From positions 1-40,492 of IMG/VR virus record IMGVR_UViG_2541047891_000004: DNA of 40,492 nt; one strand, 5' to 3'. The notes beneath the pieces are model-generated. The model was not told the DNA's origin. It worked only from the letters and a program-made list of their open reading frames with translations, and did no database searches. Below, one piece after another: positions 31,608 through 37,581 of the stretch (positions within the stretch are counted from its first letter, which is position 1; every line of letters starts with the position of its first letter). Both the position numbers and the translations under genes were made by a program. The DNA is from a virus (lineage: Duplodnaviria; Heunggongvirae; Uroviricota; Caudoviricetes).

Positions 31608-31988
31608 ATGGCAAAGGCATGGGATATCGAACCGTCAATATTTGCCGGGATGATTGAGGAAGATGTGGGGCTGAAAATTCGCTACATCGCTATTCAGATT
31701 CTTACTGCTATCGATATTGCTGCTCCGGTTGATACCGGGCGTTTCAGAAATAACAACATGGTGTCGTTACAGCATCCCGATTTTGGTATATCTGATAACG
31801 TGGATCCGAACGGTACGATTGCGGTTCAGCGTGGGATCGGGGTTATTTCGAAAGCTGCAAATTACGGAATTATTTATATCCAGAATAACCTTCCTTATGC
31901 AGAGGCTCTTGAAAACGGTCATTCACAACAAGCGCCAACTGGCGTGTATGCCAACGCTTTTCATGGTGTTTTACAGGCTTACAAATGA
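31608..31988 (+). CDS. Tail component, HK97 gp10-like (126 aa)
   Basis: VDTGRFRNN motif typical of HK97 gp10-like proteins. Confidence 0.55.
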   Translation: MAKAWDIEPSIFAGMIEEDVGLKIRYIAIQILTAIDIAAPVDTGRFRNNNMVSLQHPDFGISDNVDPNGTIAVQRGIGVISKAANYGIIYIQNNLPYAEALENGHSQQAPTGVYANAFHGVLQAYK

Positions 31989-32377
31989 CGTTTACTGAAA
32001 TCAGAAATACGGTCATTTCCAGAATGACGGCACAGACGGTTATTAATGGAAAAGACGTATTGTATCCGAACGGGCCAACGTTCGATCCTTCCGGTAAGTT
32101 AATCTGGGCGCGGTTAAGTAATATTCCCGGGCAGGCTGGAGTTAATGAAATTGGCGCGGGGCCGGTTGTTTATCGCACGGGGATAATCATTATTCAGTTA
32201 TTTGTCCCCGCAGGTTCTGGTTCAAAACTCATTACTGAGACAGCCGATAAATTGCGGGAACTGTTTGAGTTTCAGGATGACGACCGTCTCAGTTACCAGG
32301 CTGTTTCCTCAATAACCGTTGGCGAAAAGAATGGCTGGTTCCAGCTTAATCTTCAAATTCCATATCGCGCGCTCTAG
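31985..32377 (+). CDS. Tail terminator-like protein (130 aa)
   Basis: Position immediately upstream of the major tail gene. Confidence 0.45.
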   Translation: MTFTEIRNTVISRMTAQTVINGKDVLYPNGPTFDPSGKLIWARLSNIPGQAGVNEIGAGPVVYRTGIIIIQLFVPAGSGSKLITETADKLRELFEFQDDDRLSYQAVSSITVGEKNGWFQLNLQIPYRAL

Positions 32378-32403: not shown

Positions 32404-33366
32404 GTGAGTTCAGGTGCAAAGGTTATCTCGGCATTTATCCGGGAGACAGTTGCAGGCGCCACACCAGCAAGTGGTGACTGGAGTTTATTAAAACGCACAA
32501 GCTGGGGAGTAAAACCCACCCAGAATAAAGGCGAAAATAATGAGATTGGTGGCTCCCGGATGGCTCAGGGGGCGACGCCTGGCACTGTGGATGTTGGCGG
32601 TGATGTTGGTACCAAATTTCGCTGGGGTCAACATGATGATTTTCTTGCATCCTGTTTCGGCGCGGAATGGTCAGGTGATTCTCTGACAATGGGGAATGAG
32701 CGAATAACATTTTCTCTGGCGACCTATGCGTCCGATGTCGGAATTGCCTCTGTTGTCAGAGGAGCGCAGGTTGGCTCATGGAAAATGCAGATCCCTAACG
32801 ACGGCGATATTACGGCGACCGTAACCTTTGCCGGGCTGGACTGGGAATCAAAGGCCGATGATACGAATTTTATCAAAGGCGAACCTGTGGATAGTGCAGG
32901 AAAGCTACGTTATTCGTTTAAGGAGGTTTCAGCAGTAAGCCTGAATGGTGTTGCCGGAGGTAACGGTTTTTGTATCGACAGTTTTGATATTCAGTTCGAT
33001 AACAAACTCCAGACACAGCGTTGTATCGGGACTGGCTCGCCTTATGCAGGAGCAAATATTCCGACTACTTTTACACCGTCCGGTACGGTGACGCTTTCAT
33101 GGTCTAAAGCCGCGTGGGAAATCTGGAGTAAAACACTGACTGGAGAAACAGTTCCGTTCAGCTTCACGCTTTCGAATGGAGAGGGGGCATACACTTTCAG
33201 TTTCCCGAAGGTTCAGGTGTCAGGTGAATGGCCTGATGGGGGTAATACCGACATTATCCAGGTTCAATTGAGCATTACCGCAGCAGATGAAGCACCTACG
33301 ATAACCAGAAAAAAAGCCTCCCCGGCTGCCGTGATCGCAAAAGCCAGTGCTGAGGCGATTAGTTGA
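32404..33366 (+). CDS. Major tail protein (320 aa)
   Basis: GGAGG RBS; Gly/Thr/Ser-rich beta-type protein directly upstream of the G/GT chaperone pair. Confidence 0.6.
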   Translation: MSSGAKVISAFIRETVAGATPASGDWSLLKRTSWGVKPTQNKGENNEIGGSRMAQGATPGTVDVGGDVGTKFRWGQHDDFLASCFGAEWSGDSLTMGNERITFSLATYASDVGIASVVRGAQVGSWKMQIPNDGDITATVTFAGLDWESKADDTNFIKGEPVDSAGKLRYSFKEVSAVSLNGVAGGNGFCIDSFDIQFDNKLQTQRCIGTGSPYAGANIPTTFTPSGTVTLSWSKAAWEIWSKTLTGETVPFSFTLSNGEGAYTFSFPKVQVSGEWPDGGNTDIIQVQLSITAADEAPTITRKKASPAAVIAKASAEAIS

Positions 33367-33414
33367 TTTTCCGTTATTCCCCCTGTGGTACTGCACTACA
33401 GGGGGGCGCATTGA

Positions 33415-33876
33415 ATGAGGTTATGGATGTTTATTCTTAATCAGAAAATTATCATCGGTGGTGAACGCTGGTTTACCCCAATGAAGGACTTAAAACCTGT
33501 AGACGGGTTAAAACTGTTGGTGGCAAGCAGCGATAACGATCAGTATCGCTCCCGTAATGCATTAATCCGTCGCCACATTGAGAAAATGGATGCCAGTTTG
33601 CACGTCGGAACGAAGGAGTTTGATATTGCAAAGGTTTCCGAGGTGGATTCTGTTGATGATTTACTCATTGATAATGCTGCTCGTTATCTGCTGAAAGACT
33701 GGAAAGGGGTTGGTGAACTGGTTGATGGTGTTGAGGTTGCACTGGAATATACGCCAGAACGAGGGATCGCGCTGCTTAAGCAGAATCCGGAGTTGTACTG
33801 GCAGATCCTTGCAGAAGCAGTCAGCATCGCCCAGGGTAAAGAGCAGCAGAAGCAGGATACGATAAAAAAGCCATAG
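33415..33876 (+). CDS. Tail assembly chaperone (lambda G analog, 153 aa)
   Basis: Ends 6 nt after slippery heptamer A AAA AAG; between major tail and tape measure. Confidence 0.65.
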   Translation: MRLWMFILNQKIIIGGERWFTPMKDLKPVDGLKLLVASSDNDQYRSRNALIRRHIEKMDASLHVGTKEFDIAKVSEVDSVDDLLIDNAARYLLKDWKGVGELVDGVEVALEYTPERGIALLKQNPELYWQILAEAVSIAQGKEQQKQDTIKKP

Positions 33877-34184
33877 CCGCCCAGCGGTGGTTATCGGAGT
33901 TCGGGGGAGAAAAGGGTGAAAAGGCAAGATGGAAGCGAGAAAAACTCAGGTTGCCACCGATACCGGAACCAGAAATAGACCCGGTGCTTAAGGAATTGTT
34001 GTACGCCTATTCGGTAATATCCCGTGCCCGACGTTATGCTGGAATGACTGGGGTGCCTTTGCCTTTATCTCTGACAGAGATAAATGAATATTTAGCCACT
34101 CATCCGGTATTGATTGAGCGCGATGAATTTGAAGCAGTGATCTTTGCACTGGATGACCAGTATTTTCAGGAGCAGTGTGTGTAG
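33415..34184 (+). CDS. Tail assembly chaperone frameshift fusion (lambda GT analog) via programmed -1 frameshift
   Basis: -1 slip at 33864..33870 joins the G frame to the open frame through 34184 with no intervening stop (checked codon by codon). Confidence 0.6.
33864..33870 (+). other. Programmed -1 ribosomal frameshift slippery site A_AAA_AAG
   Basis: Heptamer in the G zero frame, 2 codons before its stop. Confidence 0.6.
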
Positions 34185-34307
34185 TTGTTAATTACGTACA
34201 CTCTGTTACAGAGATGTGATGGTGTCTTTAATTAAATCGATGATGCTCCTGGAGAAAAGCATTGCGTGGCCTCGTAATCGCTATATCTACTATTATGTCG
34301 CCTGAAA

Positions 34308-34327
34308 CCCACTTCGGTGGGTTTTTT
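34308..34327 (+). terminator. Intrinsic terminator-like hairpin between GT and tape measure genes
   Basis: CCCAC-TTCG-GTGGG followed by TTTTTTGTTG; tape measure RBS follows. Confidence 0.5.
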
Positions 34328-34347
34328 GTTGTCAGGAGTTTTAATGA

Positions 34348-37300
34348 ATGGCAGAGCAAACCTCGCGTCTCGCAATAATTATTGATAGCACTGGAGCGAA
34401 AAATAATGCTGACAATCTGGCCTCCTCATTAGTCAAAATGACGCAGGCTGGGGAAACTGCTGCAAATAGCGCAGGGAAAGTGACTAAGGCAACAGAAGAT
34501 GAGAAGAACGCGCTCGCAAAATTAAAAGCAGCTATTGATCCAGTTGGTGCCGCAATTGATACTGTCGGTCGACGCTATTCTGAATTAAAGAAATTTTTCG
34601 ATAAAGGGCTTATTGATAAAGAAGAATATGAATTTCTTGTCCGTAAACTTAATGAAACCACAGAGGAATTGAGCGGGGTTGCGCAAGCGCAGAGAGAAGC
34701 CGAGAAGGCCGGAAAACTTGCTGCCGCCCAGCAGGAAGCGCAGGCTCAGGCCTTTCAAAGAATGCTGGACAAGATCGACCCTCTGGCTGCGGCGCTAAGA
34801 AATCTTGAACAACAGCAGGATGAACTTAATGCTGCGTTTGCATCCGGGAAAATAAATGGTTCTCAGTTTGAGAATTATAGCCGAAAAATACAGGAAACAC
34901 GGCGAGAGCTTACCGGAGAGGCTCAGGCAGAGCGAGAAGCAGCAAAAGCACATGATGAACAGGTTGCTGCTTTGCAACGTCTGATTGCTCAACTTGATCC
35001 TGTCGGAACTGCTTTTAATCGTCTGGTAGAACAACAGAAACAGCTCAATGAAGCAAAAGCTAAGGGGATGCTTTCTCCTGAAATGTATGAGGAGCTTTCT
35101 GGAAAACTTCGTGCTATGCGGAGTGAGCTTGAGGTTACTCAATCGCAATTAAGCAAAACCGGAATGTCGGCAAAACAAACGGCTTTTGCTATGCGCATGT
35201 TGCCTGCACAAATGACGGATATTGTTGTTGGGTTGTCCACTGGTCAGTCGCCATTTATGGTGTTAATGCAGCAGGGCGGCCAGCTAAAAGATATGTTCGG
35301 TGGGATTGGCCCGGCGATCAAAGGTGTAGGTTCTTATGTGCTGGGATTAATTAATCCTTTTACCCTGGCCGCAGCAGCCGTTGGCGTCTTAGGGCTGGCT
35401 TACTATAAAGGCTCTCAGGAGCAGGACGAATTTAATAAATCTCTTATTCTTACCGGAAATCAGTTGGGGACAACCAGCGGGCAATTGGCCGATATAGCTC
35501 AACGTGCCGGGAATGCGGCTGATTCGACAACTGGCGCTGCGGCGGCAGTATTAAACCAGCTTGTGCGTTCGGGAAAGGTAGCGAGCAGTTCGCTGGAGCA
35601 AGTGACGACAGCGATAGTAAAAACGAGCGAAGTAACAGGAATATCAACCGAACAACTGGTTAATGACTTCAATGAAATTGCAAAGGATCCTGTCAGTGCT
35701 ATATCAAAACTTAATGATCAGTACCATTTTCTGACACTTGCGACTTATAACCAGATTAAGGCGCTACAGGATGAAGGGAACCAGCAGGAGGCCGCCCGCA
35801 TTGCGACAGAAGCATACTCATCCTCAATGATCCAGCGCACCAACCAGATTAAAGAAAATCTTGGTTATCTTGAGACTGCATGGAAAGCTGTCGCAGACTC
35901 CGCAAAATGGGCATGGGATTCCATGCTGGATATTGGCCGTGAGGCCTCCCTTGATCAAAAAATCTCAGATGTTCTCCGTCAAATTGATGAAATAGAAAAA
36001 AATACCCGACCCGGAGTTTTCGGGTTAGGTGGCATTGGAGATGGCGGAGCTCAAAATAAAAAGCTGGCACGATTAAAGCAGCAATTGGGCATACTTCAAG
36101 CAGAAAAAATTGCTCAGGACGTACTAAATTCATCAATAAACGATTACAACAAGCGACAACAGGAAGGAATTGAACTCAGACAGAGAGCAGATGCTTTTTC
36201 AAAACAATATCAGACCCGGGAGCAGCAGAGAGCTAGTGAACTTGCAAAACTGGAAAAGCTAAAGAATCAGTATTCAAAGGAAGAATATAATAATCTTATC
36301 GCTCAAATAAATGAGCGTTATAAAGATCCAAAGCAACCAAAGGCGAAAGGTTATTCGGATGATGCTGCCCAACGAATGATTGATCATCTGAATCAACAGA
36401 ATGCGTTACTAAGTTCACAAGCTGAATTGACCGTTAAATTAAGTTCCTCTGAACAGGAACTGGTTAAGTGGCGTCAGCAGATTGCCGACCTGGAGTCACG
36501 ACCGTCATCGAAATTAACCCAGGATCAGAAATCGCTTCTCTTACACCGGGAAGAAATAACCGCGTTGATGGAGAAAAATGTTGCGATTGAAAAAAATAAC
36601 AGGCTAATCAAGGAATCCGCCGAAATAGCTGCATGGCGTGATTCATTGCAGGCTTCGATTGATAATCGTCAACAGGGGTATGACATTCAGATTGCTGGTT
36701 ATGGGGTTGGCGATAAAAATCAGCAACGCCAGCAGGAATTACTGCGGATTGAACGTGAATATAACAATCAGCGTCTGCAACTTGAACGTGACTATGCAGA
36801 TAAATCCCGTGGAATGTCAAATCATGTTTTTCAGGAGAAAATGCAGGCTCTGAATGATGCTCTGGAACGAGAAAAAGAAATTGTCAGCCAGATAAACGAG
36901 CAGCTCGATATTCAGGCAGGAGACTGGATTAGTGGTGCCTCCCAGGGATTCAATAACTGGCTGGATGACACTAAGGATATCGGTGCGCAGATAAAATCAA
37001 CCACGACTCAGATGTTTGATGGGATGACCGATGCGCTAGGTGATTTTGTCACGACAGGCAAGGCAAATTTTCGTTCTTTCGCTACTTCCGTGATTTCGGA
37101 TCTTAGTCGAATTGCATTAAAGGCTTCAATTACTGGGATTTTCGACAGCATTAGTAACAGTTCTTCTGGGGGTATTTTAGGAACTATCGGGAGTGCTATT
37201 AGTAAATTTATTCCGAATGCAAAGGGCGGTGTTTATGAGTCTCCGTCATTGAGTACATATTCGAACGGTATTTATGACTCCCCGCAATTTTTTGCTTTTG

Positions 37301-37581
37301 CAAAAGGAGCTGGTGTTTTTGGTGAGGCTGGACCGGAAGCTATTATGCCATTAACGCGAACTTCCGATGGTTCTCTTGGTGTCAGAGCTATTAATAGTAA
37401 AAGTGGTAATGGAGGCAGAGATATTACTTATGCCCCTGTATACCAAATCACTATTCAAAATGACGGCCAGAATGGAGAGATTGGTCCTCAGGCAATAAAA
37501 GCACTTATGGGGATGGTTGATCAGCGGGTGCAGGGCGCTCTGTTAAATATGCGACGTGATGGAGGAATGTTAAGTGGCTAA
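34348..37581 (+). CDS. Tail tape measure protein (lambda H analog, 1077 aa)
   Basis: Very long coiled-coil-rich ORF after G/GT. Confidence 0.85.

What the first reader, a model, noticed from the sequence alone, without database searches (positions are those of the whole stretch)
33860..34184. Programmed -1 frameshift (G/GT-type) in the tail assembly chaperone
A canonical slippery heptamer A_AAA_AAG (33864..33870) sits two codons before the stop of the G-like ORF. A -1 shift enters a frame that stays open to 34184, which I verified codon by codon, yielding a GT-like fusion in the conserved position before the tape measure gene.
Basis: partly seen in the sequence, partly recalled or inferred. 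Interest (0 to 1): 0.4.

Follow-up and report, generated by a model that had tools for sequence, protein, structure and literature searches.

The report
Tail chaperone G/GT frameshift site
This is a real but ordinary example of the ribosomal frameshift that tailed phages use to make a short and a long tail-assembly chaperone from one gene; it sits in a Rac-like E. coli prophage whose database records do not mark it.

Summary
A_AAA_AAG lies at 33864-33870 in the phase of a 149-aa ORF (33427-33876), the stop is one codon later, and the -1 frame runs open to 34184.

The ORF lies between the tail tube gene (32404-33366) and the tape measure gene (34348-37581). It matches PHROG 313 "tail assembly chaperone" (E 3e-46). 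The predicted 252-aa fusion aligns to that profile as one stretch (174 bits).

Comparative evidence:
- 54 of 55 distinct enterobacterial haplotypes keep A_AAA_AAG. One Raoultella locus has G_GGA_AAG at the same codons.
- More distant relatives in Erwinia, Pseudomonas and Acinetobacter phages slip at the same aligned Lys codon. Acinetobacter phage TRS1 annotates a joined CDS there.
- The 0-frame stop varies from 1 to 34 codons after the slip site, while the -1 frame protein is conserved from the first codon after it.
- The first 27 codons of the -1 frame after the slip have no start codon.
- The first 38 codons show purifying selection only in the -1 frame.

I found no stimulatory RNA structure, as in lambda G/GT. 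The family has no detectable sequence similarity to lambda gpG.

Verdict: a new, unannotated member of a well-known kind, present in about a fifth of complete E. coli genomes. Low interest.

The parts
32404..33366 (+). Tail tube (major tail) protein gene, upstream neighbour
   Evidence: Pfam PF18906 Phage_tube_2 E 1.3e-30. PGAP names it 'phage tail tube protein' in identical E. coli loci.
33427..33876 (+). G-like tail assembly chaperone ORF (149 aa, 0 frame); the E. coli 'ydaY' family
   Evidence: phrog_313 'Tail assembly chaperone' E 3e-46. The start at 33427 is conserved in relatives and preceded by GAGG. PGAP calls only a 119-aa YdaY from TTG 33517.
33864..33870 (+). Slippery heptamer A_AAA_AAG in 0-frame phase
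   Evidence: Kept in 54 of 55 distinct haplotypes; the remaining one has G_GGA_AAG at the same codons. The Lys codon AAG (K148) is invariant in the alignment of enterobacterial, Pseudomonas and Acinetobacter relatives.
33870..34184 (+). T-like extension read in the -1 frame (104 codons plus stop TAG 34182-34184)
   Evidence: Open frame. phrog_1189 E 1.7e-36; Pfam PF23812 Phage_TAC_18 E 5.8e-4, below its cut-off. The first possible start in this frame is TTG 33951. The first 38 codons (33870-33983) show sd 23.5 / nd 14.5 with dN 0.18 in this frame against omega >1 in the other two frames.
33427..34184 (+). Predicted GT fusion, join(33427..33870, 33870..34184), 252 aa
   Evidence: The fusion aligns to phrog_313 profile positions 20-246 of 258 in one stretch at 174 bits, against 159 bits for G alone. 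tblastn finds the same two-piece arrangement in 27 phage records across most of the query.
34348..37581 (+). Tape measure protein gene, downstream neighbour
   Evidence: Pfam TMP_2 E 5e-82, Tape_meas_lam_C and TMP_4. phrog_24, 1107 bits.

Best explanation
The window carries a Rac-like (ydaY-type) siphovirus prophage of E. coli. Most ribosomes translating the chaperone gene from 33427 terminate at TAG 33874-33876 and release a 149-aa G-like tail assembly chaperone.

A minority slip back one nucleotide. This happens when the two tRNA-Lys sit on AAA_AAG (33865-33870) and re-pair with AAA_AAA (33864-33869). Those ribosomes read on from GCC 33870 to the stop at 34184 and make a 252-aa GT-like fusion.

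By analogy with lambda gpG/gpGT, the G part of both products coats the tape measure protein, the T part recruits the tube protein, and the fixed low ratio of long to short product is needed for tail assembly.

Shown here: the site, its phase, the open frame, the synteny, the family assignment, the conservation of the slip site, and selection on the -1 frame.

Inferred: that the shift occurs on the ribosome, its efficiency, and the role of the two products.
For: 1. Anatomy. The heptamer is in phase, the stop comes one codon later, and the -1 frame is open for 104 codons. The shift must fall within 33840-33876, the only overlap of the two open frames, and the heptamer is the only slippery motif there.

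2. Synteny. The order is terminator, tube, G, T, tape measure, then lambda-like minor tail genes.

3. Family. G matches phrog_313 at E 3e-46. The fusion covers profile positions 20-246 of 258 in one stretch.

4. Conservation of the slip site. 94 of 96 loci whose hit reaches the end of G carry one canonical heptamer in phase; the two others are the Pseudomonas phage loci. 54 of 55 distinct haplotypes have A_AAA_AAG. Raoultella locus L019 has G_GGA_AAG at the same codons. These two heptamers were measured as equally efficient in E. coli: 0.29% and 0.28% alone, 4.3% and 3.8% with IS911 stimulators, 39% and 43% with the IS3 pseudoknot (PMC4066793 supplement).

5. More distant relatives slip at the homologous Lys codon: Erwinia phage Gungnir39 GC_A_AAG_TAA, Pseudomonas phages G_GAA_AAG, Acinetobacter phages G_GGA_AAG. 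T-frame homology ((A/V)I....W) starts right after that Lys in every lineage. Acinetobacter phage TRS1 is annotated with a two-piece joined CDS there.

6. The 0-frame stop lies 1, 7, 25 or 34 codons after the slip site in different relatives and the 0-frame tails are unrelated junk. The -1 frame protein is conserved throughout.

7. Selection. The 27 codons from 33870 to 33950 have no ATG, GTG or TTG in frame. The first 38 codons have nearly saturated synonymous change, with dN 0.17-0.19 in the -1 frame against omega 1.0-2.0 in the other two frames, versus Klebsiella, Citrobacter-like, Raoultella and Dryocola relatives. Variable sites by codon position over the T alignment are 65 / 53 / 110.

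8. Near-identical sequence (97.9-98%) occurs in deposited phage genome records: Salmonella phage SPF_0923 and nine vB_EcoS Escherichia phage records. That is consistent with the arrangement being compatible with making phage.
Against: No protein data exist, so the fusion has not been observed.

I found no stimulatory element. The downstream 50-80 nt fold no better than shuffles in E. coli and three relatives (z -0.54 to +1.0). The small hairpin in E. coli begins right after the heptamer and is not conserved. Rfam finds nothing. An unaided heptamer gave only about 0.3% in reporter assays, so efficiency could be lower than lambda's few percent.

The G family has no detectable sequence similarity to lambda gpG (hhalign probability 0.1%). 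My structure model was too poor to test the fold (pLDDT 48). The chaperone role therefore rests on the PHROG name and on synteny.
Confidence: 0.9

Rival explanations
1. The same fusion is made by transcriptional slippage. RNA polymerase adds one A in the run of six A (33864-33869), and the edited mRNA is read in frame as ...I K K A I A....
For: The product would be identical, so sequence alone cannot separate the two routes for the E. coli site. A-runs are known slippage sites (PMC5009743).
Against: Six A is shorter than the runs that usually give appreciable slippage (my own knowledge). The run is always in the X_XXY_YYZ phase, which matters only to the ribosome. Relatives replace it with G_GGA_AAG, G_GAA_AAG or GC_A_AAG at the same codon, each with only 3-4 A.
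Confidence: 0.05
2. T is a separate small gene translated from its own internal start (TTG 33951, GTG 33984 or later, as annotation pipelines call it), and the heptamer is incidental.
For: PGAP and the phage depositors annotate a separate 43- to 66-aa ORF here.
Against: The annotated starts disagree with one another: 33984, 33999 and 34053 in window coordinates. The start-free stretch 33870-33950 is conserved as protein in the -1 frame and under purifying selection only in that frame. Homology to relatives begins at the first codon after the slip-site Lys. The heptamer is conserved or swapped for another canonical one.
Confidence: 0.04
3. The frame break is a sequencing error or an inactivating mutation in a decaying prophage, and the ancestral gene was a single ORF.
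For: A few loci do carry broken T regions (L056, L058, L076). One E. coli protein, P0016, is an in-frame G-T fusion.
Against: The same break is present in 1075 of 5426 complete E. coli genomes and in several other genera. It is also present in deposited phage genome records. P0016 arises from a 35-nt deletion between direct repeats, not from an ancestral single frame.
Confidence: 0.01

Closest known systems
Phage lambda gpG / gpGT (G_GGA_AAG, -1 frameshift, about 30:1 product ratio)
   Same: Same position between the major tail gene and the tape measure gene. Similar sizes: lambda G is 140 aa, this G is 149 aa. The slip is at a Lys AAG codon a few codons before the G stop: five sense codons lie between the heptamer and TGA in lambda, one here. 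The extension is in the -1 frame without its own start. No strong stimulatory structure is detected here, and none is known for lambda (my own knowledge). Mechanism and role are as reviewed in PMC5009743.
   Different: The heptamer is A_AAA_AAG rather than G_GGA_AAG, although one Raoultella relative does use G_GGA_AAG. There is no detectable sequence similarity to gpG. A 163-nt spacer with a terminator-like hairpin separates T from the tape measure gene, whereas in lambda T and H overlap.
HK97-like prophage chaperone ECs1801 of E. coli O157 Sakai Sp9 (cluster A_AAA_AAG_25 of Sharma et al. 2014, marked as a proven case)
   Same: Same heptamer A_AAA_AAG next to the 0-frame stop, same gene position, and the long product comes from the -1 frame.
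   Different: It is an unrelated protein family: no BLASTP alignment at E <= 100. It is 124 aa, giving a 226-aa fusion. The stop follows the heptamer directly. The family studied here is not among that paper's five prophage clusters.
Acinetobacter phage vB_AbaS_TRS1 gp18/gp19 (annotated joined CDS)
   Same: It is a distant homologue: 38.8% identity by tblastn over the T part, and 21% over G in the multiple alignment. The slip-site Lys aligns with K148 of the window protein.
   Different: It uses G_GGA_AAG, and its 0 frame continues 26 codons past the site. Other genes follow T instead of the tape measure gene directly.
E. coli dnaX gamma/tau frameshift
   Same: Same heptamer and the same slippery tRNA-Lys pair (my own knowledge; PMC4066793).
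   Different: dnaX has a strong upstream Shine-Dalgarno-like element and a downstream hairpin and shifts at about 50% to give a shorter product. Here I found only an invariant AGGA 6 nt upstream and no structure, and the shifted product is the longer one.

Membership tests
G/GT-type tail assembly chaperone with programmed frameshift (functional class of Xu, Hendrix and Duda 2004) | The gene pair lies between the major tail (tube) gene and the tape measure gene | tested here: met
   Tube 32404-33366, G 33427-33876, T to 34184, tape measure 34348-37581. The order is the same in relatives.
G/GT-type tail assembly chaperone with programmed frameshift | The second ORF overlaps the end of the first in another frame and has no translation start of its own at its conserved 5' end | tested here: met
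   The -1 frame is open 33840-34184 and the first start codon in it is TTG 33951. The start-free part is conserved as protein.
G/GT-type tail assembly chaperone with programmed frameshift | A slippery sequence lies in the overlap, in the correct phase, and is conserved among relatives | tested here: met
   A_AAA_AAG is present in 54 of 55 haplotypes, and G_GGA_AAG in one at the same codons. More distant relatives slip at the homologous Lys codon.
G/GT-type tail assembly chaperone with programmed frameshift | Two products, short in excess and long in minority, are made in vivo, and both are needed for tail assembly | not testable with these tools
   This needs protein analysis and genetics.
PHROG 313 'tail assembly chaperone' | Significant profile match over the length of the family | tested here: met
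   G: E 3e-46, profile positions 15-149 of 258. Fusion: E 8.9e-51, positions 20-246 of 258, in one stretch.
Pfam PF23812 Phage_TAC_18 (T part) | Score at or above the gathering threshold (27 bits) | tested here: not met
   20.4 bits, E 5.8e-4, residues 31-99 of the T part. This is a hint of remote relationship only.
Lambda gpG sequence family | Detectable sequence or profile similarity to lambda gpG | tested here: not met
   hhalign of the 18-sequence G alignment against lambda gpG gives probability 0.1%.
Tail assembly chaperone fold (spiral-forming gpG-like fold) | Structural similarity to a solved chaperone | tested here: inconclusive
   The AlphaFold2 model from 18 sequences has mean pLDDT 48 and pTM 0.35, so no fold search was made. 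There is no sequence match in the PDB.

The most novel reading that the evidence does not exclude
Across one protein family the slip is pinned to a single Lys AAG codon while the upstream half of the signal is free to change: A_AAA_AAG, G_GGA_AAG, the non-canonical G_GAA_AAG in Pseudomonas phages, and a bare A_AAG tetramer abutting a stop codon in an Erwinia phage. If the last two work, an A-site (or P-site) Lys slip alone sets a useful G:GT ratio without a full heptamer. An invariant upstream CAGGA, 6 nt before the heptamer in all 31 distinct enterobacterial sequences, may then act as a Shine-Dalgarno-like tuner.
Probability: 0.2. Interest if true: 0.3.

Novelty: new member of a known kind. 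Interest (0 to 1): 0.15.

Why it matters
The gain is mainly in annotation. This prophage family is in 1075 of 5426 complete E. coli genomes, and every record inspected splits the locus into 'YdaY' or 'hypothetical protein' plus a second small hypothetical ORF.

The exact fusion sequence is absent from a collection of 15 billion proteins. No NCBIfam model covers the family.

Recognising it gives the E. coli ydaY family a role as a tail assembly chaperone, corrects its start codon, and adds a recoding event that gene callers miss.

The series of slip-site variants at one homologous codon is a tidy natural data set for how frameshift signals evolve. It does not change what is known about the mechanism.

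Tried and rejected
- **Downstream stimulatory RNA structure.** I folded 33871-33950 and 33875-33925 and the equivalent stretches of three relatives. None folds better than shuffles, and there is no shared helix. Rfam at a permissive threshold finds nothing in 33300-34400.
- **Upstream Shine-Dalgarno-like element.** AGGA at 33854-33857 is invariant, but most of it is forced by the conserved Gln-Asp/Glu codons, and neighbouring synonymous sites vary freely. I leave this as a possibility, not a finding.
- **Structure route to the chaperone fold.** The model was too poor to use. Sequence search of the PDB was empty.
- **Profile comparison with lambda gpG.** No similarity.
- **Published prophage cluster A_AAA_AAG_25 (ECs1801).** I checked whether it is this family. 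It is not.
- **Locus search with a six-sequence alignment.** A three-sequence alignment worked.
- **Other in-phase heptamers with long -1 extensions in the window.** All are trivial gene overlaps or spurious embedded ORFs.

Full report
**1. The observation**

Reading the sequence gives the 0-frame codons ATA AAA AAG CCA TAG from 33862. A_AAA_AAG therefore occupies 33864-33870 in the X_XXY_YYZ phase, and the stop is TAG at 33874-33876. The -1 frame is open from 33840 to TAG at 34182-34184. A slip on the heptamer continues at GCC 33870 for 104 codons.

The ORF listed mechanically starts at 33415. The ATG at 33427 follows GAGG with 6-nt spacing and is the start shared by all relatives. That gives G of 149 aa and a GT fusion of 252 aa.

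**2. Is it more than chance?**

The bare heptamer is common: 22 copies in the window against 13.9 +/- 3.5 expected. I scanned all stop-to-stop ORFs of at least 100 codons on both strands. There are 86 in-phase X_XXY_YYZ heptamers, and only 5 have a -1 frame that runs 30 or more codons beyond the 0-frame stop.

The other four are trivial:
- one is an ATGA overlap with the next gene, which has its own ATG;
- two sit in spurious ORFs embedded in the capsid gene and in a 317-aa gene;
- one is antisense to a tail gene.

The 33864 site is the only one whose extension has no start of its own.

**3. What the locus is**

The 1.1 kb around the site is 95-100% identical to 1075 of 5426 complete E. coli genomes. 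It is 97.9-98% identical to Salmonella phage SPF_0923 and to nine vB_EcoS Escherichia phage records. PGAP names the first ORF 'YdaY', which is the Rac prophage gene name.

The gene order is tail terminator (31985-32377; Pfam PF13554, phrog_179), tail tube (32404-33366; PF18906, E 1.3e-30), G, T, tape measure (34348-37581; TMP_2, E 5e-82), then lambda-like minor tail genes.

G matches phrog_313 'tail assembly chaperone' at E 3e-46, covering only the first 149 of the profile's 258 positions. The predicted fusion matches positions 20-246 in a single stretch with a higher score, 174 bits. The family profile therefore already contains fused products. The T part matches phrog_1189 (E 1.7e-36). It also matches Pfam Phage_TAC_18 weakly, at 20.4 bits against a cut-off of 27.

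**4. Comparative evidence**

tblastn of the fusion against phage records finds the same two-piece arrangement, in two different frames, in Klebsiella, Erwinia, Pseudomonas and Acinetobacter phages down to about 32% identity. I fetched those loci, 11 species-level genome loci and 80 IMG/VR loci.

Of the 96 loci in which the hit reaches the end of G, 94 carry one canonical heptamer in phase; the two others are the Pseudomonas phage loci. Collapsed to 55 distinct G+T haplotypes, 54 have A_AAA_AAG. One, Raoultella L019, has G_GGA_AAG at the very same codons. These two heptamers were measured as equally efficient in E. coli (PMC4066793 supplement):

| Heptamer | No stimulator | IS911 stimulators | IS3 pseudoknot |
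|---|---|---|---|
| AAAAAAG | 0.29% | 4.3% | 39% |
| GGGAAAG | 0.28% | 3.8% | 43% |

The protein alignment of six diverse G proteins keeps only six invariant columns. One of them is K148, the AAG codon of the slip site. At that codon the signals are:
- Erwinia phage Gungnir39: GC_A_AAG followed by TAA;
- the Pseudomonas syringae phages: G_GAA_AAG;
- the Acinetobacter phages: G_GGA_AAG.

In every lineage the -1 frame protein begins to resemble the others, with the motif (A/V)I....W, at the first codon after that Lys. Acinetobacter phage TRS1 carries an annotated two-piece joined CDS there.

The 0-frame stop is not conserved. It lies 1, 7, 25 or 34 codons after the slip in different enterobacterial relatives, and 21-30 codons after it in Pseudomonas and Acinetobacter phages. 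The 0-frame tails are unrelated low-complexity sequence, while the -1 frame protein stays conserved.

**5. Selection**

The first 27 codons after the slip (33870-33950) contain no ATG, GTG or TTG in frame. Over the first 38 codons I compared the window haplotype with Klebsiella, Citrobacter-like, Raoultella and Dryocola relatives. In the -1 frame there are 22-25 synonymous against 13.5-15 non-synonymous differences; synonymous sites are saturated and dN is 0.17-0.19. The other two frames give omega of 1.0-2.0. Variable sites over the whole T alignment fall 65 / 53 / 110 by codon position.

This stretch is therefore translated in the -1 frame, and it can be reached only from G.

**6. Stimulators**

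The 80 nt after the heptamer fold at -18.4 kcal/mol against -16.9 +/- 2.7 for shuffles, z -0.54. The 51-nt stretches that begin 5 nt after the site in E. coli and three relatives give z from -0.46 to +1.0 and share no helix. Rfam finds nothing.

AGGA, 6 nt upstream (33854-33857), is invariant in 31 distinct sequences. Most of it is dictated by the conserved Gln-Asp/Glu codons, and nearby synonymous sites vary. I treat the site as unaided, like lambda's; that lambda has no known stimulator is my own knowledge. The efficiency is probably low: 0.3% alone in a reporter, and up to about 3.7% in a favourable 3' context according to PMC4066793.

**7. Mechanism**

E. coli's tRNA-Lys reads both AAA and AAG and pairs weakly with AAG. 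With AAA in the P site and AAG in the A site, both tRNAs can re-pair one base back on AAA_AAA. A fixed fraction of ribosomes therefore makes GT.

In lambda, gpG and the G part of gpGT bind the tape measure protein, the T part binds the major tail protein, the ratio is about 30:1, and neither product is in the virion (PMC5009743). I infer the same roles here from synteny and family name; this is not shown.

**8. Rivals**

- *Transcriptional slippage in the A6 run* would give the same protein. It does not explain the strict phase of the heptamer, nor its replacement by motifs with three or four A.
- *Independent initiation of T* is contradicted by sections 4 and 5 above. The annotated T starts also disagree between records.
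- *Sequencing error or decay* is excluded by the breadth of conservation.

**9. Comparison with what is known**

The locus works like lambda G/GT. It is not a sequence relative of gpG (hhalign probability 0.1%).

It is also not the A_AAA_AAG prophage chaperone cluster listed as proven by Sharma et al. 2014. That cluster, ECs1801 in Sakai prophage Sp9, has the heptamer directly before TAG but has no BLASTP similarity to this G.

In this lineage the recoding is unannotated. The fusion sequence is not in the 15-billion-protein collection, the G protein is called 'hypothetical' or 'phage protein', and NCBIfam has no model. All G homologues carry a precomputed Pfam hit, PF27119.1, that is newer than the local Pfam copy, so I cannot say what it is called.

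**10. Verdict**

Both the observation and the interpretation are correct. This is an ordinary, previously unmarked member of the well-known G/GT frameshift class. I rate interest at 0.15. Confidence that a -1 ribosomal frameshift yields a GT fusion here is 0.9.

Noticed in passing
window 33378-33406: A 12-bp GC-rich hairpin (-21.2 kcal/mol, z -3.7, no shuffle as stable) sits between the tube gene stop and the G start, without a T-run. Relatives in Klebsiella, Citrobacter-like, Raoultella, Erwinia, Pseudomonas and Acinetobacter phages all have an unrelated GC-rich hairpin at the same place, most followed by a T-run. It may be a conserved attenuator that lowers chaperone expression relative to tube protein.
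   Followed up: partly
window 34304-34325: A terminator-like hairpin with a T-run (9 pairs, z -2.8) lies in the 163-nt spacer between the T stop and the tape measure start. In relatives the same junction holds one to four extra genes, including a membrane protein, a regulator and an antirepressor, so it looks like an insertion hot spot.
   Followed up: partly
window 33517-33876; protein P0032: PGAP's 'YdaY' is called as 119 aa from TTG 33517, although the conserved start is ATG 33427. P0032 (251 aa) fuses an N-terminus that I take, from memory and without a test, to be terminase-small-subunit-like to G residues 27-149. It probably reflects a large internal deletion as in the K-12 Rac remnant; I did not compare it with K-12.
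   Followed up: partly
window 33811-33820 and 33846-33855; protein P0016: One E. coli protein (240 aa) is an in-frame G-T fusion with junction AEA|GYDKKAIAAQRW. The junction fits a 35-nt deletion between the two copies of the 10-bp direct repeat GCAGAAGCAG. Such a prophage would make only the long product.
   Followed up: partly
L005 1984-1995; L006 about 440-450; L007 about 1893-1903: Non-canonical slip signals occur at the homologous Lys codon: GC_A_AAG_TAA (tetramer next to a stop) in Erwinia phage Gungnir39, and G_GAA_AAG in Pseudomonas syringae phages phiPSA1 and Aurca01. In the Pseudomonas phages the 0 frame continues 21 codons further.
   Followed up: partly
L056, L058, L076 (IMG/VR loci); L025, L029, L073: Three loci have a T region truncated at 37-59 codons by indels or rearrangement, consistent with decaying prophages. 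Others have alternative T C-termini: ...DDQYFQEQCV, ...DDQYVSQSKTVDGILIN and ...DDNYFSRTDDFDEQNI. This suggests mosaic recombination at the T end.
   Followed up: no
all G homologues: A precomputed Pfam hit, PF27119.1, is on every G homologue but is absent from the local Pfam-A copy, which found no family for G. Its name and curated description could not be read here.
   Followed up: no
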